Assembly (NCBI GenBank): GCA_038207265.1
Contig: JBBQZZ010000014.1
Location: 47,224-111,223 of the forward strand
DNA length: 64,000 bases
Direction of reading: 5' to 3'
From: Chitinophagales bacterium
GTDB lineage: Bacteria > Bacteroidota > Bacteroidia > Chitinophagales > Chitinophagaceae
Shown piece after piece: positions 1 through 16,932 of this stretch. The stretch's first letter is position 1. Every line of letters starts with the position of its first letter. The notes under the pieces were generated by a model. The model did no database searches, had not been told where the DNA came from, and saw only the letters and a program-made list of their open reading frames with translations. The translations under genes and the position numbers were made by a program.

Positions 1-1155
1 GGCAAAATTTACATTGTCTATTGTTCCCATTAACATGCGTGCAGCATTTTTTGTTGCCGGAATAAATAAATTTGATTGAATTGAAGTTTCAGGTACCAGT
101 CCACTCAACATCACACCTGCTTTTTTATAACTGCGTCCATTCTCATACATTTGTTCTACCAGCTGTACCGCAGGTTTGATCAGTTCATGCGTAACAGATG
201 TAGCTGAAGGCAATGTAGTTTGTGCACCAATATTGGGACCGTGATGAAAATCGGTTAAATAATCTGATTCTTTTGGAACAATGAATACACTTACAATACT
301 GGCGGCGCTTTGTTGCCGGCGTAATTTTTCTGCTGCTCTGGAGGTATAGGTAGCGATGGCTTCCCTGATATCATTGATATCTGTTACGGGTTCTCCAAAC
401 ATGCGTGTGGTAGCGATCATTTTTTTAGTTTCCAGCTGGTTTTTCATTTCGATGCAGGGTTCACCCCTTAATTCTTTGATCAGCCTTGCACCTACCACGC
501 CGCCCAGGTTTTTATAAGCCCATTCTTCACTCATATTATGCAAATCCCAGGCACTGATAATTCCGAGGTTCATTAATTTTTCTGCATAGGCCCTTCCAAC
601 ACCCCAGATACCAGTCACCCTCGTTACCTGCAGTGCTTCCCGCTGCTGTTCTTTTGTGGAAAGTATACTCACGCATTCGGTTATGCGCTTATTTTTCTTT
701 GCCAGGTGATTGGCAATTTTCGATAATGTTTTGGTAGGTGCCACACCAACGGAAACAGAAATACCTGTCCAGGCTTCTACTGTTTTCCGGATGTGCATGC
801 TATAATCTGTCAGATCTGCTGAAGGAATATGACTGAGATCCAGGAATGCTTCATCTACTGAATATACTTCTACGGATGGAGATAGTGTACGTAAGGTATC
901 CATCACACGCATACTCATGTCGCCATAGAGATTATAATTAGAAGAAAATACAGCAATATTGTGTTGCTCAATCAAGCTCCGGGCCTGGAAATAGGGGCCG
1001 GCCATTCCAACACCAAACGCTTTTGCTTCATCGCTTCGCGAAATAATGCATCCATCGTTATTGCTGAGCACCACCACCGGCTTGTTCAGTAAATCGGGAC
1101 GAAACACTCTTTCAGCAGAGCAATAAAAACTGTTGCAGTCGACGATTGCTTTCAT
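1..1155 (-). CDS. umuC: Y-family translesion DNA polymerase, UmuC-like (C-terminus lies beyond the window edge)
   Basis: Absent from the ORF track because its stop lies left of position 1. My reverse-strand translation from the ATG (complement of 1153..1155) reads MKAIVDCNSFYCSAERVFRPDLLNKPVVVLSNNDGCIISRSDEAKAFGVGMAGPYF..., a canonical UmuC/DinB N-terminus. The last 20 codons at the window edge, which I translated, are open (...IDNVNFA), and no competing ORF of 60 aa or more is listed in 1..1132. It lies downstream of a umuD homologue. Confidence 0.85.
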   Translation of the reverse strand, partial: MKAIVDCNSFYCSAERVFRPDLLNKPVVVLSNNDGCIISRSDEAKAFGVGMAGPYFQARSLIEQHNIAVFSSNYNLYGDMSMRVMDTLRTLSPSVEVYSVDEAFLDLSHIPSADLTDYSMHIRKTVEAWTGISVSVGVAPTKTLSKIANHLAKKNKRITECVSILSTKEQQREALQVTRVTGIWGVGRAYAEKLMNLGIISAWDLHNMSEEWAYKNLGGVVGARLIKELRGEPCIEMKNQLETKKMIATTRMFGEPVTDINDIREAIATYTSRAAEKLRRQQSAASIVSVFIVPKESDYLTDFHHGPNIGAQTTLPSATSVTHELIKPAVQLVEQMYENGRSYKKAGVMLSGLVPETSIQSNLFIPATKNAARMLMGTIDNVNFA

Positions 1156-1195
1156 ACCTCCTGACCCCCTAATGGGGGAACCTGGAACGAACTCA

Positions 1196-1600
1196 TTAAT
1201 TGTGTCTTTGGATTTCATCAATCATAAAATTTATTTTTTCAATGACGTTGTTCATGACTTGCATAATTTCATCATTAGCGAGCCTCATAAACTTTATACC
1301 CTCTTATTCAAGAATAGATTGTCTTTCTTTGTCTTTTTTTATCACATCAATCAAATCATGAATCGATCCATCAAACTCAATAACTAATTTCAATTGATGA
1401 AAGTAAAAATCAACAATATCATTTCCAATTGGATGTTGCCTTCGAAACTTTTGTCCTTTTGGTCTTGTTCGTAAATGCAACCACAAAATTCTTTCAGCAT
1501 CGGTCGGATTATGCCTGGGTTCCCTTGCTCTTTGGAAAATAAGCGGACCAGCACTATAAAACATTTCCTTTTTCACAATGAGGATTTTGATATAAGACAA
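1196..1600 (-). pseudogene. DUF559 (Vsr-like endonuclease fold) mini-gene interrupted by an in-frame TAA
   Basis: The track ORF 1304..1600 ends ...DKERQSILE at a TAA (complement of 1304..1306). Reading on in the same frame gives EGIKFMRLANDEIMQVMNNVIEKINFMIDEIQRHN, then a stop at 1196..1198. This matches the usual DUF559 C-terminus (G-I/Y-K-V/F-x-R-F/L-x-N-x-E-I/V). The N-terminal part has the typical ...TDAERILWLHLR...KFRRQHPIG..IVDFY......IEFDG..H motif string. Confidence 0.6.
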
Positions 1601-1638
1601 TGTGTAATGAATAAAGTAAGTTGATCTAAGTCCCTCCT

Positions 1639-2079
1639 TTAGGGGGACAGGGGGTGAATACAGTACGTCACCACTCCCCAGATCGAAAACTCATTACATG
1701 CAGTATCTACTTCAACTGGCGACAACTTATTTGATTCAGGCAATAGCCTGATCTTGTTAAAAGTTTTTTCTAACCGGCGAATGAGCATTTCGCCATTCAG
1801 GATGGCAACTACTATTTTTCCATTGGTTGCTTTTAACGATCGATCCACTATCACAGTATCTCCATCAAATATGCCTGCAGCAACCATGGCATCACCCCGC
1901 ATACGCATAAAAAATGTAGCCGGTTTATTATGGATCAGCTGTTCATTTAAATCAATACCTCTTTCTGCATAATCATCAGCGGCTGCACCAAAACCCGTGG
2001 CATTGGCCGTTCTGATATGGTGCTGGTTAAATTGTTTGGAACCTTTGTAAGCAGCGCCAAAAAACAGTTCATCTTCCAT
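1639..2079 (-). CDS. umuD: UmuD-like S24 peptidase-fold protein (Pol V accessory subunit homologue) with substituted catalytic residues
   Basis: Aligns by eye to E. coli UmuD across ...GF....ADDY.E..IDLN..LI.....TFF....GD.M...GI.DGD..IVD......G.IV.A...GE.....L. It lies upstream of umuC on the same strand. Confidence 0.8.
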   Translation of the reverse strand: MEDELFFGAAYKGSKQFNQHHIRTANATGFGAAADDYAERGIDLNEQLIHNKPATFFMRMRGDAMVAAGIFDGDTVIVDRSLKATNGKIVVAILNGEMLIRRLEKTFNKIRLLPESNKLSPVEVDTACNEFSIWGVVTYCIHPLSP

Positions 2080-8227: not shown

Positions 8228-11065
8228 CTAGAAATTCAAAGCAATCTTTGTAAACAATCGTCTTCCGTTAAAGCCCATTTGCACAGAATCCCAGGGTCCA
8301 CCGCTTTCATTGTCCTCTGCATAACCTTTTGCCTGTGGATTCACACCAAGATCCGGATGAATATTAAACAAATTATCAGCCCCGATAAACAAACTGATCT
8401 TTTTAGAAAATCTATAGGATGCGTAAACATCGGTAGTAATCTTGTGATTGTAATTAAATACTTCCGGCACATATACATTGGGGTTAGCATCGCTGGGTAC
8501 ACGCGGATTGATACCAGAATAATTTGGATTATCAAATCCACCCGGTGAACCTGGATTGGGTGCACTTCCATCCCCAAAACCCAACAAGACAATTTTTCCA
8601 TAGGAAGTAAAATGAGCACCCAAACCAAAGTTGGCAAGTGTATAATCCAATCCCAGGGAAAACTTACTATTGGGTGCAGATGCTTTCAGGAATGCTTCTT
8701 CCCGGTCGCTGTAAAAAGTTTTTTTCTGCAATTGCGTATTGCTCAGCGCAGATGGGTAATGAGTTTCATCAATGGTCAGGTGTTGTACATTACCAGCCAG
8801 CAATACCTTCAGGCTGTTGCGGTTCCAGTGAAAAGTATAGTCTGCCACAATATCCAATCCTATATTGGTGGTACTAACAGCGTTGGCAAAAAACTGTGCA
8901 GTGGAGACCTCTGCCGGAAACTGGGAAGTAAAAGAAGCGGGCAATGTTGCATCGTCTTTACTGAACAAACCAGAAAGCACAACCCGGTCTTTTACCTTAA
9001 CAATATAACCGTCTACAGTAACCGTAAATCCTGTTAGCGGTTTCCACGAAAATCCAAGGCTTCCATTGATAGAAGTTTCCTGTTTCAAATCTGGTATGCC
9101 TGCAGCTCTCGCGATAGAACTGGTATTGGGAGCGATGAGTGATTGTACCAGTTGTCCCCCGCTGAAGGAAGTAAGCGTATTACTGAAATGTATTTGCGCC
9201 AGCGATGGTGCACGGAAACCCGTACTCACAGAACCCCTGATATTGAAATTATCCAATACTTTATAACGCGTGGCCAGTTTACCGGTCAAGACAGATCCAA
9301 AATCTGAATAATTTTCAAATCTTACCGCGGCATCTACCAACCATTTTTTGGTGATATCAAGTGCGGCATCAACATACACCCCTTCGTTGTTACGGTTAGA
9401 ATGTACGGCGTCTGTATTGCTGAATCCGGGAAAACCCTGGGAGCCGGAAGCCTGTACGCCATTGGGATCATAATTCTTATAAGAAAGATCCTCACCACTA
9501 AAAATAGTATATTTTTCATACCGGAACTCTGCACCAAAACCAAGGTTCAATCCACTGGCTACTGTTTTAAAAGTTTTATTGAAATCCAGGTTCAGTGTAT
9601 TTTGTAAAAAGTTGAAACCACCGTCATCAAAGTGGGTGGGCGTTGCTTTTCCTATCTGCGAAGCATTGAATGTTTTATCGCCATAATAATGAAAATCATT
9701 ATAACCAATGGTATTGCTCAAATCCCATCCCCAGTCTTTACCGGCGCTGCCCCTGATTCCAGCAGCAAAAGAGATGTCGGTAATATGCGTTTGTATATGC
9801 GGGTTATAATAAACTTCTCCATCGTTGGAAGTATGCATGATGGAAGGCACGTCAATACGGTTACCACCGGCATCAACCGGGAAGCGCTCAGGTTTAGCAC
9901 TCCAGTTTCTTGAATAGGCAAAAGCATCGGAAGCTTTATAGTTGTAGCCGCCAAAAGAATAAAAAGTTGTTTTACCACCTGCACTGGTGGGTACTTCCAT
10001 ATTGTACATAATGCCTGCGGTAGTAACGGAACCATCTCCAAATGCCCTGCGGCCGGTATTCAGATAAGGCAACGCATTTTTATTTCCATAAGCATTCATC
10101 GTATCAACCTGGCGATAGGTTTTTGCCTGGCGAAGAAAATCGGCAGAAACATTGATAAAGCCGCCGTTTTTACCAATAGCAGCGCCATTGTTTACAGACA
10201 ATGTATATGTACCGCCATCAATGGCGTTACCAGAATAATATTGATTGCCGGAATTGAATTTACGTGCATTGAATTTGGTGTCGTTATAACCGGCCCATCC
10301 TGCATTTACTGACCAATGGTTAATGTCTTTTTTTAGAATGATATTGATTACACCTGCAATGGCATCAGAACCATATTGTGCAGAAGCACCATCCCGTAAT
10401 ATTTCGATGCGATCAACCGCTGTTTGGGGAAAGCCATTCATGTCAACTCCGGAATTGGCGCGGCCTCTTGTGCCAAACAATCCTACAAACGCTGTAGAAT
10501 GTCTTCTTTTACCATTGATTAAAACAAGGGTATGATCCGGACCCAAACCTCTTAAAGTACCCAAATCAATGTGATCGGCACCGTCTGCACCACTTTGTTT
10601 ATTATAATTGAATGAAGGTGCCGCGATATTCAATGCAGAAGTGAGATCCATTTTTGCAGTGGGTAAACCAACCTGGTTGATGCGGATGATATCAACCGGT
10701 ACAGGGGTTTCAATCTTTGCCCTGGCACCGCCTCTTGATCCTACAAATACAATTTCGTTCAGCTCTGTAGCCGCATTTTCCAGTCCAATGGTCAGTGTTG
10801 TCTCATTGCCAACTTTTATGGATTGCGTTTTGTATCCTACAATACTTATTTCCAACACATCATTAGGACCGGCTGTTATACTAAAAGCGCCATCCTTATT
10901 GGTAATGGTTCCTTTCTTAGTAGCCTTTACCCGGATAGAAACATCTGGTAGTGGATTGCCTGTTTTTGAATCCGTTATTTTACCGGTAACGGTTTGGGCC
11001 TGGGCAATCAGCGTAAATGAAATTGCTAACATCAGCATACATAGAACCTTTGGTAAGCGTCTCAT
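8228..11065 (-). CDS. TonB-dependent outer-membrane receptor with CarboxypepD_reg-like N-terminal domain
   Basis: Signal peptide; TVTGKITDSKTGNPLPDVSIRVK...GAFSI (carboxypeptidase-regulatory fold); plug region (VDRIEILRGASAQYGSDAIAGVINIILK); a long beta-barrel rich in aromatic-x-aromatic repeats; terminal ...FTKIALNF. Confidence 0.9.
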   Translation of the reverse strand: MRRLPKVLCMLMLAISFTLIAQAQTVTGKITDSKTGNPLPDVSIRVKATKKGTITNKDGAFSITAGPNDVLEISIVGYKTQSIKVGNETTLTIGLENAATELNEIVFVGSRGGARAKIETPVPVDIIRINQVGLPTAKMDLTSALNIAAPSFNYNKQSGADGADHIDLGTLRGLGPDHTLVLINGKRRHSTAFVGLFGTRGRANSGVDMNGFPQTAVDRIEILRDGASAQYGSDAIAGVINIILKKDINHWSVNAGWAGYNDTKFNARKFNSGNQYYSGNAIDGGTYTLSVNNGAAIGKNGGFINVSADFLRQAKTYRQVDTMNAYGNKNALPYLNTGRRAFGDGSVTTAGIMYNMEVPTSAGGKTTFYSFGGYNYKASDAFAYSRNWSAKPERFPVDAGGNRIDVPSIMHTSNDGEVYYNPHIQTHITDISFAAGIRGSAGKDWGWDLSNTIGYNDFHYYGDKTFNASQIGKATPTHFDDGGFNFLQNTLNLDFNKTFKTVASGLNLGFGAEFRYEKYTIFSGEDLSYKNYDPNGVQASGSQGFPGFSNTDAVHSNRNNEGVYVDAALDITKKWLVDAAVRFENYSDFGSVLTGKLATRYKVLDNFNIRGSVSTGFRAPSLAQIHFSNTLTSFSGGQLVQSLIAPNTSSIARAAGIPDLKQETSINGSLGFSWKPLTGFTVTVDGYIVKVKDRVVLSGLFSKDDATLPASFTSQFPAEVSTAQFFANAVSTTNIGLDIVADYTFHWNRNSLKVLLAGNVQHLTIDETHYPSALSNTQLQKKTFYSDREEAFLKASAPNSKFSLGLDYTLANFGLGAHFTSYGKIVLLGFGDGSAPNPGSPGGFDNPNYSGINPRVPSDANPNVYVPEVFNYNHKITTDVYASYRFSKKISLFIGADNLFNIHPDLGVNPQAKGYAEDNESGGPWDSVQMGFNGRRLFTKIALNF

Positions 11066-11365: not shown

Positions 11366-12814
11366 ATGCAAAATGCAACAGAAGAGATTCGTCAATTGTT
11401 TTCTACCGTGAAGAATGAACCGGTTAAGCAAATAGATAAGATTCCGCAATCGGGCAGCGACCGGATCTATTATCGTATCCTTACAGAATCCGGCAGCTAT
11501 ATTGCAACTACGGGTCATAATGTAAAAGAAAATAACACGTTCATCCACTTCAGCAGGCAATTTAAAAAAGCGGGTTGCCCGGTGCCGCAGATTCTTGCTG
11601 TCAATGATGATCAGACCATTTACCTGCAGGAAGATTTTGGGGATGTTTCTTTATTGAATAAGTTGGAAACGCATGGGTACAATGAATATGTTTATAGTCT
11701 CTTTAAACAAAGCCTGAAAGAACTGGCAAAACTCCAGGTAAACGGTGGCCGGCATATTGATTATAATTTGTGCCTCACTGCAAAGGAATTTGGAAAGCAG
11801 GCAATTTTGTCGGACCTGCTTTACTTTAAATATTATTTCCTGGATACATTAAAATATGCTTATGATAAACAGGCACTGCTGAATGATTTTGAGGCATTGA
11901 GTACTTACCTGACACAAACGGAAAATAAATATTTCATGTTCCGCGATTTTCAGAGTCGCAATGTGATGATCAAAGATGATAAAGTTCATTTTATAGATTA
12001 CCAGGGCGGCATGCGCGGAGCCTTACAATATGATGTGGCTTCTCTTTTGTGGCAGGCAAGGGCAGAACTGCCAGACGACTGGAAAAAAAGCCTGCTTGAT
12101 TATTATATAGATGAAGCGAACAAGCTATTGGAAATACCTGCAGACAACACCGTTTTTACTACCCAATACAATGGTTATGTATTGATTCGTTTATTGCAGG
12201 TATTGGGTGCCTATGGATTCCGCGGTTTATTTGAACGCAAAGCTCAGTTTCTGACCAGTATTCCATTGGCACTCCTCAACCTGAAATGGTTTTCAGAAAA
12301 CAGAAGCATGGGAATTGCTGTTCCTGAATTTGAAAAATGCCTGCGTTTTTGTGTGAGCGATGAAGTCATCAACCGGTTTGAACCCTTGCGTGCTACAGCA
12401 GAAACAGCATTGACGGTAACCATCAATAGTTTTTCCTATAAAAAAGGAATCCCCCAGGATGAATCTGAAAACGGCGGTGGCTTTGTGTTTGATTGCCGTG
12501 GCATTTTAAATCCGGGGCGTTTTGATGCATTCAAAAAATTAACCGGCAGGGATAAAAGCGTTAAAGATTTCCTGGAACAGCAAACCAAAATGCCCGATTT
12601 CCTCAACAGTGTTTTTGACATAGCAGATATATCAGTAACGGACTACATTAAACGCAATTTCAGCAGCCTCATGATCAGCTTTGGCTGCACTGGTGGACAG
12701 CACAGGAGTGTTTATGCTGCAGATGCGCTGGCAAGGCATTTAAAAAATAAGTTTCATGTGAAGATTAATTTGCAGCATAGGGTGCAGGACGAGAAGAACT
12801 GGATCAACGGATAG
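11366..12814 (+). CDS. Fusion protein: APH-fold sugar kinase (AmgK-like) N-terminal domain plus RapZ/YvcJ C-terminal domain
   Basis: The N-terminal part has SGSDRIYYRI (cf. the AmgK/APH Gly-rich/R-x-Y-x-R region) and the catalytic loop FRDFQSRNVMI....HFIDYQGG. The C-terminal ~130 aa has FVFDCRGILNPGR...LTGRDKSVKDFL and the near-invariant RapZ signature GCTGGQHRSV. Confidence 0.7.
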   Translation: MQNATEEIRQLFSTVKNEPVKQIDKIPQSGSDRIYYRILTESGSYIATTGHNVKENNTFIHFSRQFKKAGCPVPQILAVNDDQTIYLQEDFGDVSLLNKLETHGYNEYVYSLFKQSLKELAKLQVNGGRHIDYNLCLTAKEFGKQAILSDLLYFKYYFLDTLKYAYDKQALLNDFEALSTYLTQTENKYFMFRDFQSRNVMIKDDKVHFIDYQGGMRGALQYDVASLLWQARAELPDDWKKSLLDYYIDEANKLLEIPADNTVFTTQYNGYVLIRLLQVLGAYGFRGLFERKAQFLTSIPLALLNLKWFSENRSMGIAVPEFEKCLRFCVSDEVINRFEPLRATAETALTVTINSFSYKKGIPQDESENGGGFVFDCRGILNPGRFDAFKKLTGRDKSVKDFLEQQTKMPDFLNSVFDIADISVTDYIKRNFSSLMISFGCTGGQHRSVYAADALARHLKNKFHVKINLQHRVQDEKNWING

Positions 12815-12923
12815 TAAGTGAGTAGTAAATAGGGAGTAGGTAAGCAGGCAGGAGATATAAAACATTATAATTGAAAAGAATGGTCAACTATAATTCACAA
12901 AATTCCCTTTTAGGGGCAGGGGT

Positions 12924-13640
12924 ATGAAAGGAATGATTTTCGCCGCCGGGCTGGGTACAAGGTTTAAACCCTGGACAGATAAACATCCCAAAGCGCTGGC
13001 TTTGGTGAATGGTAAAAGTTTATTGCAGAGAAATGTTGAATACCTGCAGCAGTATGGCATTACAGAAGTAGTGGTGAACGTGCATCATTTCGCTGACCAG
13101 GTCATTGAAGCAATAAGAAAGAACAATGGCTGGGGCAGTAAAATTTTAATCAGTGATGAACGTAATGAAGTACTGGAAACCGGCGGTGGATTGTTAAAAG
13201 CAAAAAACCTGCTGGAAGGAGATGAATGTTTTGTAACCATCAATGTGGATATACTTACGGATCTCAAAATCAAAAGACTGCTGGATTTTCACAAAGATTA
13301 TAAACCGCTTATTTCATTTGCCGTTACCCATCGCAATACTTCACGTAATTTTTTATTTGATGAATTTGATCGTCTCTGTGGATGGCGCAACAAAAAAACA
13401 GGAGAAGAAAGAATTTCAATTGCAAAAAATGATCTTATAGAAAAAGCTTACAGCTGTGTGGTAGTGTTCGAACCCACCATTTTTTCATTGATAAAACAAC
13501 AGGGCAAATTTTCATTGGTAGAAACCTATCTCAGCCTGGCCAAAGATCATTTGATACTTGGTTATGAGCATACCGGCGATAAATGGGTGGATGTTGGCAA
13601 ACCTGAATCGGTTGCCGTAGCGGAGAAACTATTTTTATAA
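12924..13640 (+). CDS. Sugar-1-phosphate nucleotidyltransferase, MurU-like
   Basis: N-terminal MIFAAGLGTRFKPWTDKHPKALA (the G-x-G-T-R signature of the NTP_transferase fold), ~238 aa, immediately downstream of the AmgK-like kinase, as in amgK-murU pairs. Confidence 0.7.
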   Translation: MKGMIFAAGLGTRFKPWTDKHPKALALVNGKSLLQRNVEYLQQYGITEVVVNVHHFADQVIEAIRKNNGWGSKILISDERNEVLETGGGLLKAKNLLEGDECFVTINVDILTDLKIKRLLDFHKDYKPLISFAVTHRNTSRNFLFDEFDRLCGWRNKKTGEERISIAKNDLIEKAYSCVVVFEPTIFSLIKQQGKFSLVETYLSLAKDHLILGYEHTGDKWVDVGKPESVAVAEKLFL

Positions 13641-13647
13641 CGATTGT

Positions 13648-14757
13648 TTAATCCTGTGGCAACTGATCAAAAATATAACTCAGCGGGGACTCTTCCAGTA
13701 CCTGTCTCTCAATGGTATTATCAGCAGCGGTTTCCCATTTTACCAGGCGTACAAATCCATCTTCAATCTCAATACCGGTTATGTCACCATCGCTGAAACA
13801 GCAACAGCCGCTATTGAAATAGGAAGGATAGGTCATGCTCTTCACAAATTTTTTTCCTTCATATTCTTTTTTGCGCTGCGCCAGGTCTGCTGCTATTTTA
13901 TTTATTAATACCTCATCGTTTATTTCTTTTGCATTTTGCAGCTGGTGTGTCAATCGATCAATATGATCAAGTGAAGCAAAGACAGGTTTATGCGTATGAC
14001 CCGAAACCATGATGAGTTGCTTTTTGGTGGCGCTCCATTCATACATAATTATATTGTGCGCATCGGTAAGTTCAAAAGAGGTAGAAGGCGTGTTGATACT
14101 TACTTCCAGGAAGCGTTGAATAGGCGTCCAGATCGCGGCTACTACCCATGTGCTGAATGGATTGCCATCACTTTTTTTATCACCCTGGTGACCATGCGTG
14201 AGAAAAAATGAAAACGTTTTATTGTTGTATTGCGTTTGCAATTCTATGCCTTCATAAATTTTTAACGTATCGCCAAATACCGGCTTCAGGTAAATCATTT
14301 GCTGAAAAGGATATTTCCATTCCAGGTCGTGGTTGCCAAAAACTTTATAATACCTGTTTTGCTGTAAGAATTTCAATTCTGATTCAAACACTGTTTTATT
14401 GGCTTTCATAACGGTATCGGGTGTGTTCTCCCAGAGTTCTTCCGCATCTCCCAGGTTTATGTATTGAAAATTATTATTGAAGTAATAATCAAGCGCGGCC
14501 ACATAATTTTTTTCCGCCAGCCGAAAATCATCGGCCATGTCGCGGATGCCTTTGTGTTGATCAGAAAAAATAATAAACCGGCCGCTGTTTATTTCATAAG
14601 GTATAATAATGCCTTCTGTAGTATTGCCCGCGCGAATCTCTTTCAAAACCGTATCCATGGAAGAAAACACATCTTCTTTGACTGGTGAAGAGGAAATTTT
14701 TTCGGCCAGCCGGGTGACAGGTTTTTGAAAGATTCTTTGCAAAAAGCGTTTGAACAT
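13648..14757 (-). CDS. Calcineurin-like metallophosphoesterase
   Basis: The motif series is present: IIFSDQHKG (D-x-H), LGDAEELWEN (G-D-x-x-E), GNHD, LTHGHQGD and SGHTHKP. Confidence 0.75.
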   Translation of the reverse strand: MFKRFLQRIFQKPVTRLAEKISSSPVKEDVFSSMDTVLKEIRAGNTTEGIIIPYEINSGRFIIFSDQHKGIRDMADDFRLAEKNYVAALDYYFNNNFQYINLGDAEELWENTPDTVMKANKTVFESELKFLQQNRYYKVFGNHDLEWKYPFQQMIYLKPVFGDTLKIYEGIELQTQYNNKTFSFFLTHGHQGDKKSDGNPFSTWVVAAIWTPIQRFLEVSINTPSTSFELTDAHNIIMYEWSATKKQLIMVSGHTHKPVFASLDHIDRLTHQLQNAKEINDEVLINKIAADLAQRKKEYEGKKFVKSMTYPSYFNSGCCCFSDGDITGIEIEDGFVRLVKWETAADNTIERQVLEESPLSYIFDQLPQD

Positions 14758-14787: not shown

Positions 14788-15954
14788 CTATACTTTAATG
14801 TATATTTTCTTTTTATCCAGCCAGTAAGCAATCAACCAGTAAAAAACAACGATACTCAATGCAAATAATAAGGAGCCATTGTTGAGATTGGAAGAAATAT
14901 TTTTACATACATGTTCAAAGTACCAGCCAAAAACATTTGTATAAACCGGTTTGCCATCTTCACCAATATGATCTGTCCATCTTAGTAAACCCGCTACCCT
15001 TGGTATAAACCCACTGAGAAAAAATACAAACAATGGATTTTTTCCAAAAACATCAAAGAACCTCGTCCAGCCACCGCGTTGGTTACGGAATTCAACTGCG
15101 TACATAAGAATGGCAAGAATCATCATAGCCAGGCCAGTTGTATAAACGACAAAAGAACTGGTCCATATTTTTTTGTTGATAGGAAATACCATGTCCCAAC
15201 AAAAACCGGCAAAGAGTAATACCGCGGCAATTACAAAAAGGCTGCTGAGCATTTCAAATGTTTTGCCTTTCTGTATAATATAGTTGCCAACCAAATAACC
15301 AAAAATTACCTGTGCAATGGAGGGAATGGTGCTCATGATTCCTTCGGGGTCGAATGCGATGCCCTCACCTTTATACATATGCGCGATGCCCAGTATTTTT
15401 TTATCGATAGGTGTACCAAACCAGCCATTGATACTATAGGGATCTGCCGGATTGCCCAGCATACACATCAGCCAGTATCCAAAAAGAAGAACTGCAGTCA
15501 TCACGAAGGCACCCCGAATTTTCAGGAAGTAAATGATTAGCGATGCAAACAGGTAAGACAATGCAATTCTTTGTAACACGCCAAGTATCCTTACACCATT
15601 ATCAGGGTTATCCGGATTTACCCAATGACGCAGCACAAGATGTTCTCCCTGCCAGCGAATAAATGGGCTCCAGTTAAGAAAGAGCCCGATAGCGAATATT
15701 ATCAAAAACCTTTTGAATACTTTTTTAAGAAACGCATTGGTACCTGCTGCTTCCAGCCGGGGCATAACAAACGCCATTGCATTACCCACGGCAAAAAGAA
15801 AAAAGGGAAAGACAAGATCAGTAGGCGTGAGGCCATGCCAGGGGGCATGTTCCAGTGGTTCGTAAACATGTTCGGAACCTGCGTTGTTTACCAGGATCAT
15901 GAATGCCACAGTGGCACCGCGAAAAATATCCAGGGAGTAAAATCGTTGATTCAC
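14788..15954 (-). CDS. HGSNAT/DUF5009-type membrane acyltransferase-like protein (NagX-like)
   Basis: N-terminus RFYSLDIFRGATVAFMILVNN is typical of the heparan-alpha-glucosaminide N-acetyltransferase-like family. About 10-11 hydrophobic helices. Confidence 0.7.
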   Translation of the reverse strand: MNQRFYSLDIFRGATVAFMILVNNAGSEHVYEPLEHAPWHGLTPTDLVFPFFLFAVGNAMAFVMPRLEAAGTNAFLKKVFKRFLIIFAIGLFLNWSPFIRWQGEHLVLRHWVNPDNPDNGVRILGVLQRIALSYLFASLIIYFLKIRGAFVMTAVLLFGYWLMCMLGNPADPYSINGWFGTPIDKKILGIAHMYKGEGIAFDPEGIMSTIPSIAQVIFGYLVGNYIIQKGKTFEMLSSLFVIAAVLLFAGFCWDMVFPINKKIWTSSFVVYTTGLAMMILAILMYAVEFRNQRGGWTRFFDVFGKNPLFVFFLSGFIPRVAGLLRWTDHIGEDGKPVYTNVFGWYFEHVCKNISSNLNNGSLLFALSIVVFYWLIAYWLDKKKIYIKV

Positions 15955-16059: not shown

Positions 16060-16932
16060 CTATGCATTCACACCGGATCTCAGCGAATTTTCGCGCGGTT
16101 GCTTGTCGAAGAAATAAGGGATGGGCAATTTTTTTGCAAGTCTCGGATAAATAAGTTTTGCTATTAAATAAATAGAAAGAGGAAGAATGATCAAAAATAA
16201 AAAATCAGCAATCACCGCGTACTTCTTGATGAAAAACGTACGGAACGAAAAACCCTGCAGTTCCTCATCACTCATGAACAAAGACATTACTTTTTTCAAG
16301 GCAGGCATTAATACTGGTATTTTGTTCCAGTTGGTATATCGCACATCTTCATACCGGTATCGTCCATCATAATTTTCAGGAACCTGTTGCTTGTAAAGAT
16401 CCCAGTTGGTACTTACATCTTGAAAAGAAGCCAGTTTTCCATCAGCTCTTTTAAAAGAAAGGTTATACAACGGATCCAGCACCGCCCAGCCATAACTGGT
16501 TTTAGCCTCAATAATAATATGACCCCCAAATACGCCGTCCACTTTCATTTGAGCAAACCTGCTTTGAATGTTCATTGTTCTTAAAACACCACAAAGAACA
16601 GCAGAATAACTTCCGCAGGCACCATCGGCTGTCATCATATCAGTGGAAAGCGGATGAATAAATTCGTCAACGAAACCGGTAGCAGGAACACCACTGAATA
16701 TTTCGGACCTTCTTCTCAATAAGTAATGAGTGGTATGTACAGCGCTTTTGATCAGGCTGTCTTCTTCAAGTTCGCCAACACTGGTAATTTTTTTTGCAAT
16801 GGAATTGAATATCAAATCTTCGCGGTTGGCCTGTATTTTAAATAAGATGAAAAATGCAATGAGGAAGCCATTGACAAAGACTAAAAAATGGAGGTTAGTG
16901 ACGATCCTTTTTAAAATTCTTCCGGGTTTCAC
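16060..16932 (-). CDS. Membrane-anchored transglutaminase-like (Cys-His-Asp) domain protein
   Basis: Candidate triad context: ADGACGSYSAVLCGVLR ... GGHIIIEA ... WAVLDPLYN. Flanked by N- and C-terminal hydrophobic helices. Confidence 0.5.
   Translation of the reverse strand: MKPGRILKRIVTNLHFLVFVNGFLIAFFILFKIQANREDLIFNSIAKKITSVGELEEDSLIKSAVHTTHYLLRRRSEIFSGVPATGFVDEFIHPLSTDMMTADGACGSYSAVLCGVLRTMNIQSRFAQMKVDGVFGGHIIIEAKTSYGWAVLDPLYNLSFKRADGKLASFQDVSTNWDLYKQQVPENYDGRYRYEDVRYTNWNKIPVLMPALKKVMSLFMSDEELQGFSFRTFFIKKYAVIADFLFLIILPLSIYLIAKLIYPRLAKKLPIPYFFDKQPRENSLRSGVNA

What the first reader, a model, noticed from the sequence alone, without database searches (positions are those of the whole stretch)
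11366..13640. AmgK-like sugar kinase fused to a RapZ C-terminal domain, paired with a MurU-like uridylyltransferase
The 482-aa protein joins an APH-fold kinase (FRDFQSRNVMI...IDYQGG) to a domain with the near-invariant RapZ/YvcJ signature (FDCRGILNPGR...LTGRDKSV...GCTGGQHRSV). In RapZ this C-terminal domain is the PFK-like module implicated in amino-sugar metabolite and sRNA binding. There it is normally attached to a P-loop domain, which is absent here. The downstream gene looks like MurU. In Pseudomonas, AmgK and MurU convert MurNAc (and GlcNAc) to UDP-MurNAc and so bypass de novo synthesis. A RapZ_C module welded to the salvage kinase suggests direct metabolite-sensing control of cell-wall sugar recycling. 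Alternatively it is a second catalytic function not described for either parent family.
Basis: partly seen in the sequence, partly recalled or inferred. Interest (0 to 1): 0.6.

Follow-up and report, generated by a model that had tools for sequence, protein, structure and literature searches.

The report
Cell-wall sugar kinase carrying RapZ domain
This Chitinophagaceae gene encodes a probable cell-wall-sugar (MurNAc) recycling kinase fused to the phosphate-binding half of the regulator RapZ; the design is very common in Bacteroidota, I found no study of it, and it offers a simple way to learn what that RapZ domain does.

Summary
ORF 11366-12814 (482 aa) is an APH-fold, AmgK-like kinase (residues 29-307) fused to a true RapZ C-terminal domain (349-473; Pfam E 5e-34; model on E. 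coli RapZ-CTD, TM 0.85). A MurU-like uridylyltransferase follows (12924-13640). No RapZ P-loop domain is in this genome or above cut-off in 301 phylum genomes.

This copy is ordinary. RapZ_C occurs in 82% of 301 sampled Bacteroidales and in Chitinophagaceae, Chlorobia, Ignavibacteria and Rhodothermia. This scan has flagged the same fusion on other DNA at least 20 times.

The order kinase, RapZ_C, MurU is fixed, but either junction can be fused or split: three genes (Chryseobacterium), RapZ_C-MurU fusions and triple fusions all exist. The C-T-G-G-x-H-R-S pocket loop is invariant. Pocket His190 is always Gly, and a clade-specific NGGG...FDCR insert adds a second cysteine. The RNA-contact residues and basic tail are lost.

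Three Bacteroidales genomes lacking MurA and MurB have this fusion as their only AmgK-like kinase, supporting MurNAc salvage.

The most likely role is phospho-amino-sugar sensing or coupling rather than RNA binding. A cysteine-dependent catalytic role is not excluded. I found no published description.

The parts
11366..12814 (+). Gene for the 482-aa AmgK-like kinase / RapZ_C fusion protein
   Evidence: ORF. Pfam APH plus PapZ_C. More than 8000 homologues, and the 120 best listed all carry both domains. AlphaFold model with mean pLDDT 86.5 and pTM 0.70.
11450..12286 (+). APH-fold kinase domain (Pfam residues 29-248; AmgK model residues 33-307)
   Evidence: PF01636 E 9e-12. NCBIfam AmgK NF045759 scores 59.9 bits, well below its cut-off of 550. 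The best PDB fold match is 3CSV, a putative aminoglycoside phosphotransferase, E 2e-13 and TM 0.74 by target.
11942..11962 (+). Catalytic loop R-D-F-Q-S-R-N (residues 193-199; D194 and N199)
   Evidence: All seven residues are invariant in a 31-sequence alignment that goes down to 41% identity. This is the HxDxxxxN-type loop of APH-fold kinases (established knowledge).
11993..12010 (+). Metal-binding I-D-Y-Q-G-G motif (residues 210-215; D211)
   Evidence: I210, D211, Q213, G214 and G215 are invariant.
12380..12409 (+). Inter-domain linker (residues 339-348)
   Evidence: It lies between the last kinase helix (332-338) and the first RapZ_C strand (350-357) in the model. Natural gene splits occur at this position.
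12410..12784 (+). RapZ C-terminal domain (residues 349-473)
   Evidence: PF22740 E 5e-34. phmmer against E. coli RapZ-CTD 5O5S gives E 5.5e-16. Foldseek finds only RapZ structures, TM 0.75-0.85.
12470..12499 (+). Clade-specific glycine-rich insert and second cysteine: N-G-G-G-F-V-F-D-C-R (residues 369-378)
   Evidence: E. coli RapZ lacks it. [N/H/D]GGG is present in 136 of 136 and D-C-R in 134 of 136 diverse representatives where the region could be read. D376 and R378 correspond to E. coli D182 (CTD dimer contact) and R184, and both are invariant.
12683..12709 (+). Phosphate-pocket loop G-C-T-G-G-Q-H-R-S (residues 440-448), equivalent to E. coli C247, T248, G249, H252 and R253
   Evidence: Aligned to E. 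coli RapZ. C-T-G-G-[Q/R/C]-H-R-S is present in 149 of 150 representatives. The pocket is defined in PMC5737377, and C247 is essential according to PMC9841335.
12815..12923 (+). 109-nt spacer between the fusion gene and murU-like gene
   Evidence: No plus-strand terminator-like site and no Rfam match. In relatives the two genes are closer together or overlap.
12924..13640 (+). MurU-like sugar-1-phosphate uridylyltransferase gene (238 aa)
   Evidence: NCBIfam MurU NF045761 scores 128.5 bits (cut-off 250); Pfam NTP_transferase E 1e-16. The G-L-G-T-R-F motif starts at residue 9. It lies directly downstream in 46 of 72 Chitinophagaceae loci and next to or near the kinase in 17 of 20 phylum loci.

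Best explanation
The gene encodes an AmgK-type anomeric kinase. It most probably makes MurNAc-alpha-1-phosphate, and perhaps GlcNAc-1-phosphate, which the downstream MurU-like enzyme converts to the UDP-sugar for peptidoglycan synthesis. In this organism that would be an auxiliary salvage route running beside MurA. The kinase carries a RapZ-type C-terminal domain as a fixed third component of the module. This domain keeps the phosphate-binding loop (C-T-G-G-x-H-R-S) and the dimer-contact Asp, but has lost the RNA-binding surface. I therefore think it binds a phosphorylated amino-sugar metabolite, not RNA. Through that binding and through dimerisation, it would tune or couple flux between the kinase and MurU at the branch between MurNAc catabolism (MurQ) and re-use. 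Shown here: the domain identities, the fixed gene order, the residue pattern, the phyletic pattern, and the presence of the module in MurA/MurB-less genomes. Inferred: the sugar substrate, the identity of the ligand, and the direction of any regulation.
For: Domains and fold are established. The kinase active-site motifs are invariant. The AmgK model hits only this gene in the genome, and among 14 control genomes it hits only Caulobacter (validated AmgK, PMC13046382) and B. thetaiotaomicron. In the phylum sample, all 44 genomes with RapZ_C also have the close kinase and MurU. The order kinase-RapZ_C-MurU comes in every fusion state: three separate genes, kinase-RapZ_C, RapZ_C-MurU and a triple fusion. 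Three Bacteroidales genomes (96-100% complete) lack MurA and MurB and keep one fused kinase plus MurU; T. forsythia is a published precedent for this kind of dependence (PMC7670621). The genome has NamZ, AnmK, MurQ and MurA, so it has sources of MurNAc and a competing catabolic branch. The E. coli RapZ-CTD alone binds GlcN6P with a KD of 10 nM (PMC7073468). The RNA contacts R238, K251 and K270 are F, Q and V/I here, and the basic tail is absent. Two close relatives have lost RapZ_C and keep the kinase and MurU genes overlapping, with one of them nested among fused forms in the kinase tree. This fits an accessory role rather than an indispensable catalytic one.
Against: No ligand or activity has been measured for any member of this clade. 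The kinase scores far below the AmgK equivalog cut-off (60 against 550 bits) and lies on a very long branch from the plain, NamZ-linked AmgK-like kinases of the same phylum, so the sugar specificity is inferred. Pocket residue His190 is Gly and the pocket gains an NGGG loop and a second Cys, so the E. coli ligand may not apply. Near-absolute conservation of two cysteines is more typical of catalysis or redox chemistry than of simple binding. The presence of the fusion in MurA/MurB-less genomes is not an enrichment, because 82% of sampled Bacteroidales have RapZ_C.
Confidence: 0.5

Rival explanations
1. RapZ_C is an enzyme, not a sensor. A cysteine-dependent active site in the C-x5-R-S loop would carry out a third reaction on a phospho-amino sugar. 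One candidate is dephosphorylation of MurNAc-6-P or GlcNAc-6-P to feed the anomeric kinase, the step done by MupP in Pseudomonas. Another chemical conversion of the sugar phosphate is also possible.
For: The Cys of the loop is present in 149 of 150 diverse representatives, and a second Cys (D-C-R) in 134 of 136. In E. coli RapZ even C247S is inactive, and the authors suggest 'a specialised catalytic function'; they also report density for 'a chemically transformed product' of GlcN6P in the CTD pocket (PMC9841335). The loop has the C-x5-R-S spacing of cysteine phosphatases (seen directly in the sequence). The genome has AnmK, which makes MurNAc-6-P.
Against: Foldseek finds no phosphatase-like or other enzyme fold, only RapZ. 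The genome has NamZ, so free MurNAc is available without a 6-phosphatase. B. thetaiotaomicron has RapZ_C and the AmgK-like kinase but no AnmK (controls). Two close relatives dispense with the domain. No activity has been reported for any RapZ_C.
Confidence: 0.2
2. RapZ_C is mainly a structural module. It would dimerise the kinase and dock MurU so that MurNAc-1-phosphate passes directly from one enzyme to the other, with no small-molecule sensing.
For: RapZ_C always sits between the kinase and MurU and can be fused to either or both. The Asp equivalent to E. coli D182, which is needed for CTD self-association (PMC7073468), is invariant. B. subtilis YvcJ, a RapZ homologue, physically binds GlmR, an enzyme reported to make UDP-GlcNAc (PMC7525490, PMC13046274, PMC10128056).
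Against: A pure scaffold would not need an invariant phosphate-binding loop with Cys, His and Arg. In G256 the three genes are dispersed and RapZ_C is paired with an MFS transporter gene instead. Plain AmgK-MurU pairs work without the domain in Pseudomonas and Legionella (PMC11957156).
Confidence: 0.15
3. The module acts on a different sugar. The kinase and nucleotidyltransferase would activate another hexosamine or sugar for a surface polysaccharide rather than MurNAc for peptidoglycan.
For: Both enzymes score below the NCBIfam equivalog cut-offs (60 of 550 and 128 of 250 bits). The clade is very distant from the NamZ-linked plain AmgK-like kinases. APH-fold anomeric kinases for other N-acetylhexosamines exist (established knowledge: NahK).
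Against: AmgK and MurU are the best-matching curated families for both proteins. Three genomes without MurA and MurB keep the module as their only AmgK-like and MurU-like genes. Bacteroidales is the order of T. forsythia, whose AmgK and MurU have been shown to work on MurNAc probes in E. coli (PMC10941766, PMC13691567), and 82% of sampled Bacteroidales have this module.
Confidence: 0.1
4. The protein is a RapZ-like RNA adaptor, as the NCBI name 'RNase adapter RapZ' implies. It would bind a small RNA and present it to a ribonuclease.
For: The RapZ_C fold and pocket loop are shared with E. coli RapZ, where the same pocket contacts the RNA backbone (PMC9841335). K170 (K/R) and R184 are kept.
Against: The RNA contacts R238, K251 and K270 are replaced by F, Q and V/I, H190 is Gly, and the basic C-terminal tail is missing; only 3 of the last 19 residues are basic. 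The RapZ model NF003828 scores 105 bits against a cut-off of 244 and matches only its C-terminal part. The tetramer-forming P-loop domain is absent. There is no Rfam RNA in the window. The protein's invariable partners are metabolic enzymes.
Confidence: 0.03

Closest known systems
AmgK / MurU anabolic MurNAc recycling pair (Pseudomonas putida and P. aeruginosa; also Caulobacter, Legionella, Tannerella forsythia)
   Same: An APH-fold kinase is followed by a small sugar-1-phosphate nucleotidyltransferase. AmgK and MurU are the best-matching curated families for the two proteins. The module is kept in genomes that lack MurA and MurB.
   Different: The kinase is about 140 residues longer because of the RapZ_C domain. 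It scores far below the AmgK equivalog cut-off and forms a separate, long-branched clade. The studied Pseudomonas and Legionella AmgK proteins (about 38 kDa) have no such domain. I could not verify whether the T. forsythia enzyme used in the literature has it.
RapZ (E. coli YhbJ; PDB 5O5O, 5O5S, 8B0I), the GlcN6P-sensing adaptor for RNase E cleavage of GlmZ
   Same: The C-terminal domain has the same fold (TM 0.85, 32% identity), the same C-T-G-G-x-H-R-S pocket loop, and the same dimer-contact Asp.
   Different: There is no P-loop N-domain, so no RapZ-type tetramer. His190 is Gly. An extra NGGG...D-C-R insert is present. The RNA-contact residues and basic tail are lost. The domain is attached to metabolic enzymes rather than acting in riboregulation.
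YvcJ-GlmR (YvcK) pair of Firmicutes
   Same: A RapZ-family protein is encoded next to, and works with, a protein that binds or makes a UDP-amino-sugar in cell-wall precursor supply.
   Different: YvcJ has the P-loop domain and binds UDP-GlcNAc through its Walker-A lysine. GlmR (CofD family) is unrelated to MurU and is absent from this genome. The resemblance is an analogy, not shared ancestry of the whole system.
Plain AmgK-like / MurU-like / NamZ operon in another family of the same phylum (f20; loci L109 and L110)
   Same: Kinase followed by nucleotidyltransferase, with a direct link to MurNAc release through NamZ.
   Different: It has no RapZ_C. Its kinase is closer to validated AmgK (104 bits) and only 22-25% identical to the window's kinase. 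Its nucleotidyltransferase is 318 aa.

Membership tests
AmgK (N-acetylmuramate/N-acetylglucosamine 1-kinase) | Score above the curated NCBIfam equivalog cut-off (NF045759, 550 bits) | tested here: not met
   59.9 bits over residues 33-307. AmgK is nevertheless the top kinase family, and the model hits only this gene in the genome.
AmgK (N-acetylmuramate/N-acetylglucosamine 1-kinase) | APH / eukaryotic-like kinase fold with an intact catalytic loop and metal-binding Asp | tested here: met
   PF01636 E 9e-12. The fold matches APH-family structures. R193-D194...N199 and D211 are invariant.
AmgK (N-acetylmuramate/N-acetylglucosamine 1-kinase) | Genomic pairing with MurU | tested here: met
   MurU-like gene 109 nt downstream. 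It is adjacent in 46 of 72 family loci and next to or near the kinase in 17 of 20 phylum loci. Genome-level co-occurrence is 44 of 44.
AmgK (N-acetylmuramate/N-acetylglucosamine 1-kinase) | Phosphorylates MurNAc or GlcNAc at the anomeric carbon | not testable with these tools
   The only support is indirect: three genomes lacking MurA and MurB keep this kinase and MurU as their only such genes.
RapZ / YvcJ family (RNase adapter RapZ) | N-terminal P-loop (Walker A/B) domain, PF03668 | tested here: not met
   No hit in this 100%-complete genome. None above cut-off in 301 phylum genomes.
RapZ / YvcJ family (RNase adapter RapZ) | RapZ C-terminal domain, by sequence and by fold | tested here: met
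   PF22740 scores 117.5 bits against a cut-off of 27. Foldseek gives TM 0.85 to 5O5S.
RapZ / YvcJ family (RNase adapter RapZ) | Full-length score above the NCBIfam cut-off (NF003828, 244 bits) | tested here: not met
   105.6 bits, covering only model positions 153-276.
RapZ / YvcJ family (RNase adapter RapZ) | Ligand pocket residues H190, T248, G249, H252, R253 (plus C247) | tested here: inconclusive
   T, G, H, R and C are invariant, but H190 is Gly in all 15 aligned forms and in 136 of 136 representatives (NPG).
RapZ / YvcJ family (RNase adapter RapZ) | RNA-binding surface: K194, R196, R211, R238, K251, K270 and the basic tail K281-R282-K283 | tested here: not met
   R238 is F/W/Y, K251 is Q (R in one form), K270 is V/I (T in one form), and the tail is absent.
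MurU (MurNAc-alpha-1-phosphate uridylyltransferase) | Score above the NCBIfam equivalog cut-off (NF045761, 250 bits) | tested here: not met
   128.5 bits over the full length. It is the top hit, and the next family not named MurU scores 74 bits.
MurU (MurNAc-alpha-1-phosphate uridylyltransferase) | Nucleotidyltransferase fold with the N-terminal G-x-G-T-R motif | tested here: met
   PF00483 E 1e-16 over residues 2-231. The N-terminus reads MKGMIFAAGLGTRFKPWT.

The most novel reading that the evidence does not exclude
The RapZ C-terminal domain is at root a small cysteine-dependent enzyme, or a covalent sensor, for phosphorylated amino sugars. It would have evolved as the third component of a kinase / uridylyltransferase salvage pathway, and the RNA-adaptor role of enterobacterial RapZ would be a late moonlighting function. 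In this module it would perform a third chemical step, such as sugar-6-phosphate dephosphorylation or proofreading of the sugar-phosphate intermediate, using the invariant C441/R447 loop and the clade-specific C377.
Probability: 0.2. Interest if true: 0.8.

Novelty: new variant of a known kind. Interest (0 to 1): 0.5.

Why it matters
What the RapZ/YvcJ C-terminal domain does outside the enterobacterial GlmY/GlmZ circuit is an open question. The E. coli literature itself hints at unexplained chemistry: an essential Cys247, and a transformed GlcN6P in the pocket. In Bacteroidota the same domain is attached to two ordinary, assayable enzymes. It also occurs naturally as a free 135-aa protein, as a kinase fusion, as a MurU fusion and as a triple fusion. 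That gives a simple biochemical system for finding its ligand or reaction.

There are practical consequences too. The module is present in most sampled Bacteroidales, including predicted MurNAc auxotrophs. It is probably the form of the AmgK/MurU enzymes in that order, so it bears on fosfomycin bypass and on MurNAc-probe labelling of gut and oral Bacteroidota. Finally, the database name 'RNase adapter RapZ' given to many of these proteins is misleading.

Tried and rejected
1. **Phosphatase-type fold.** Because of the C-x5-R-S loop, I asked whether RapZ_C has a cysteine-phosphatase fold. Foldseek of the isolated domain returned only RapZ structures, and the next hit had E 0.18. The resemblance is therefore only a local motif.

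2. **Salvage island with the neighbours.** Across Chitinophagaceae loci the metallophosphoesterase is adjacent in 10 of 64 and NagX in 7 of 64, and neither appears in the 20 phylum loci. They are not core parts of the module.

3. **RapZ_C as the missing MurNAc-6-P phosphatase.** This idea is weakened by NamZ in this genome, by B. thetaiotaomicron lacking AnmK (control), and by two lineages that lost the domain. It is not excluded.

4. **UDP-GlcNAc as the ligand, by analogy with YvcJ.** YvcJ binding depends on the Walker-A lysine of the N-domain, so the analogy does not transfer to the C-domain.

5. **Enrichment in MurA/MurB-less genomes.** The background frequency in the same sample is 82%, so only the necessity argument stands.

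6. **Guessing the MupP model number.** NF045760 turned out to be YtpR, which is irrelevant. MupP presence was not tested.

7. **Architecture of the T. forsythia AmgK used in the literature.** The key papers are not held and a supplement search found nothing. It remains unverified.

8. **Regulatory elements.** Promoter and terminator scans were not above chance, and Rfam found no RNA family in the window.

9. **Inter-domain geometry.** Model coordinates are not exposed, so I could not measure it.
Full report
**What is there.** The window comes from a Chitinophagaceae genome. The closest relatives are MAGs with 80-83% protein identity. The genome is 5.3 Mb in 36 contigs and 100% complete. ORF 11366..12814 (+) encodes 482 aa and ORF 12924..13640 (+) encodes 238 aa.

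The 482-aa protein matches Pfam APH (PF01636) at residues 29-248 (E 9e-12). It matches the RapZ C-terminal domain (PF22740) at residues 349-473 (E 5e-34, 117.5 bits against a cut-off of 27). In NCBIfam, the AmgK model aligns over residues 33-307 but scores only 59.9 bits against an equivalog cut-off of 550. The RapZ model matches only through its C-terminal part (105.6 bits, cut-off 244). The downstream protein matches MurU best (128.5 bits, cut-off 250; the next family not named MurU scores 74) and carries the G-L-G-T-R motif.

An AlphaFold model of the whole protein is confident (pLDDT 86.5, pTM 0.70). Its kinase part matches APH-family structures best, led by 3CSV. The C-domain modelled alone superposes on E. 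coli RapZ-CTD (5O5S: TM 0.85 by target, rmsd 2.6 A, 32% identity), and nothing else in the PDB reaches E < 0.1.

**No canonical RapZ.** The genome has exactly one RapZ_C domain, the one in this protein, and no RapZ P-loop N-domain. In 301 genomes of the phylum (all at least 90% complete), RapZ_C was found in 44 and the P-loop domain above cut-off in none. Among the tool's named control genomes, B. thetaiotaomicron hits RapZ_C and the AmgK model but not the P-loop domain. GlmR/YvcK, the partner of RapZ-like YvcJ in Firmicutes, is also absent from this genome.

**How common it is.** Homologue searches saturated at 8000 hits, and all listed hits carry both domains. Named members include Chitinophagaceae, Paludibacteraceae (Bacteroidales), Breznakibacter, Chloroherpeton thalassium (Chlorobia), Melioribacteraceae and Ignavibacteriales, and Rhodothermia. 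In a separate sample of 301 Bacteroidales genomes, RapZ_C is present in 246 (82%), mostly in open frames of about 470-530 aa.

This copy is therefore ordinary for its lineage. NCBI names many of these proteins 'RNase adapter RapZ', which the evidence below does not support. This scan has already flagged the same fusion at least 20 times in other genomes, with follow-ups reaching similar conclusions. I treated those notes as leads and re-derived what I use. Full-text searches found no paper that holds RapZ together with AmgK or MurU, and none describing this architecture.

**A three-part module with movable junctions.** The order kinase, RapZ_C, MurU holds in 17 of 20 loci taken from across the phylum. 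MurU is directly downstream in 46 of 72 Chitinophagaceae loci.

The junctions vary:

- In Chryseobacterium the three parts are separate genes of 343, 135 and 237 aa.
- One Paludibacteraceae species and one member of family f28 are also split.
- In G256 the three genes are dispersed, and RapZ_C overlaps an MFS transporter gene.
- A scan of 1.8 billion representative proteins with the 142-aa domain found 221 representatives at E <= 1e-30. Among the best 150, most are fusions of about 470-500 aa and some are stand-alone proteins of 127-165 aa.
- At least seven of the 150 are proteins of 714-768 aa with the domain in the middle. The six I scanned are triple fusions: APH, RapZ_C, NTP_transferase.
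- Two are RapZ_C-NTP_transferase fusions of 374 and 387 aa.

At genome level, all 44 RapZ_C genomes of the phylum sample also have the close kinase (E <= 1e-56) and MurU. Only two further genomes have the close kinase, and there it overlaps MurU directly with no RapZ_C.

A kinase-domain tree shows the RapZ_C-linked kinases as one clade (100/100). Split forms are nested in at least two supported places, and one of the RapZ_C-less forms groups with fused ones (95/94). The fused state therefore looks ancestral, with later fissions and losses. The neighbouring metallophosphoesterase and NagX-like genes are not conserved partners (10 and 7 of 64 loci).

**Is the kinase a MurNAc kinase?** Direct membership in AmgK is not met by score. 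A family in the same phylum (f20) has a different, plain AmgK-like kinase that is closer to validated AmgK (104 bits). It sits in an operon with a MurU-like gene and NamZ, the exo-N-acetylmuramidase. The window's clade lies on a very long branch from it.

Three things support MurNAc salvage all the same:

- The AmgK model is selective. It hits one gene here, and among 14 control genomes it hits only Caulobacter (validated AmgK) and B. thetaiotaomicron.
- The partner gene is MurU-like.
- Of 301 Bacteroidales genomes, five lack MurA. Three of these, from three families (100%, 99% and 96% complete), also lack MurB. Each has exactly one full-length fused kinase (41-44% identical to the window's) plus MurU, which is adjacent in two of them. 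Such genomes can obtain UDP-MurNAc only by salvage, as published for T. forsythia (PMC7670621).

This is an argument from necessity, not an enrichment, because the background frequency is 82%. I could not confirm peptidoglycan-synthesis genes in those three genomes, and I could not verify the architecture of the T. forsythia AmgK used experimentally (PMC10941766, PMC13691567).

The window's own genome has MurA, NamZ, AnmK and MurQ. Here the module would be a bypass, sitting at a branch between MurNAc catabolism and re-use.

**What the RapZ_C residues say.** I aligned fifteen fused, split and stand-alone forms to E. coli RapZ-CTD and counted motifs in 150 representatives that share at most 50% identity.

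- **Kept.** The pocket loop C-T-G-G-x-H-R-S (E. coli C247, T248, G249, H252, R253) is present in 149 of 150. D182 (the CTD dimer contact) and R184 are invariant.
- **Changed.** Pocket residue H190 is Gly everywhere (NPG in 136 of 136). A five-residue glycine-rich insert ([N/H/D]GGG, 136 of 136) precedes F-D-C-R, which adds a second cysteine (134 of 136). E. coli has neither.
- **Lost.** The RNA contacts R238, K251 and K270 become F, Q and V/I, and the basic C-terminal tail is missing.

The literature shows that the E. coli CTD alone binds GlcN6P with a KD of 10 nM (PMC7073468). The same pocket holds sulphate, malonate or RNA backbone phosphate (PMC5737377, PMC9841335). C247 is essential even against a Ser substitution, and a 'chemically transformed product' of GlcN6P was seen in the pocket (PMC9841335). 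YvcJ binds UDP-GlcNAc, but through its Walker-A lysine (PMC10986989), so that result says nothing about the C-domain.

**Interpretation.** The domain is a conserved phosphate-binding module that has been remodelled around the pocket and stripped of RNA-binding features. It is physically tied to a sugar-1-kinase and a sugar-1-phosphate uridylyltransferase.

The best-supported reading (about 0.5) is that it binds a phosphorylated amino-sugar metabolite and, as a dimerising accessory domain, tunes or couples the two enzymes. Two independent losses, and the existence of plain AmgK-MurU pairs, fit an accessory role.

A catalytic role (about 0.2) is kept alive by the two near-invariant cysteines and by the E. 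coli hints. It is not supported by fold comparison, and NamZ makes a MupP-like phosphatase unnecessary here. A pure scaffold (about 0.15) explains the position between the enzymes but not the invariant pocket. An RNA-adaptor role is unlikely (about 0.03). Separately, there is about a 0.1 chance that the pathway acts on another sugar.

**Novelty and score.** The enzymes and the domain are each known. Their union as a fixed three-part module appears to be unstudied, although it is visible in domain databases and found repeatedly by this scan. I class it as a new variant of a known kind with interest 0.5. This copy is ordinary. The family is a good experimental handle on the unresolved function of the RapZ C-terminal domain, and on MurNAc salvage in Bacteroidota.

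Noticed in passing
L004 (G256:C30) 247-1940, minus strand: A stand-alone RapZ_C gene (136 aa) overlaps by 4 nt a downstream MFS_1 transporter gene (428 aa; no NCBIfam match). The AmgK-like kinase and MurU of this genome lie on other contigs. RapZ_C paired with a permease may point to a role at the uptake step.
   Followed up: partly
Genomes G118, G515, G521 (Bacteroidales sample): Three genomes from three families, 96-100% complete, lack both MurA and MurB, so they are predicted MurNAc auxotrophs like Tannerella forsythia. All three keep the fused kinase and MurU. Two sister species of G118 in the same genus have MurA.
   Followed up: partly
L109 3104-5064 and 1938-3107; L110 1125-4245: A different family of the phylum (f20) has an operon with 4-nt overlaps: a plain AmgK-like kinase (334-335 aa), a longer MurU-like enzyme (318-319 aa) and NamZ exo-N-acetylmuramidase. 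PMC8054146 states that NamZ is mostly missing where the anabolic route is present; this operon is a counter-example.
   Followed up: partly
Protein P0379 (718 aa): An unusual architecture: a 3'-5' exonuclease domain (PF01612), then APH, then RapZ_C. It may be a gene-calling read-through or a real fusion.
   Followed up: no
window 13648-14757 (-), 14788-15954 (-), 16060-16932 (-): Convergent neighbours of the module: a 369-aa calcineurin-like metallophosphoesterase, a NagX-like transmembrane glucosamine N-acetyltransferase (158 bits, cut-off 480) and a transglutaminase-core membrane protein. Only close relatives share the first two (10 and 7 of 64 loci).
   Followed up: partly
L003 4972-6396: In this genome the kinase ORF ends and the RapZ_C ORF starts 3 nt later in the same reading frame, so the split comes from a single in-frame stop. 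Both products recur in several metagenome contigs, so it is not a one-off sequencing error.
   Followed up: partly
L005 4428-5177 and L007 7192-7944: In Chryseobacterium the three-gene module is followed by a LOG-family / 'possible lysine decarboxylase' gene (PF03641, about 250 aa). Its relevance is unknown.
   Followed up: no
window 8228-11065 (-): A 945-aa TonB-dependent receptor with a CarboxypepD_reg N-domain lies upstream and is transcribed divergently. It is shared by only 13 of 66 related loci.
   Followed up: partly
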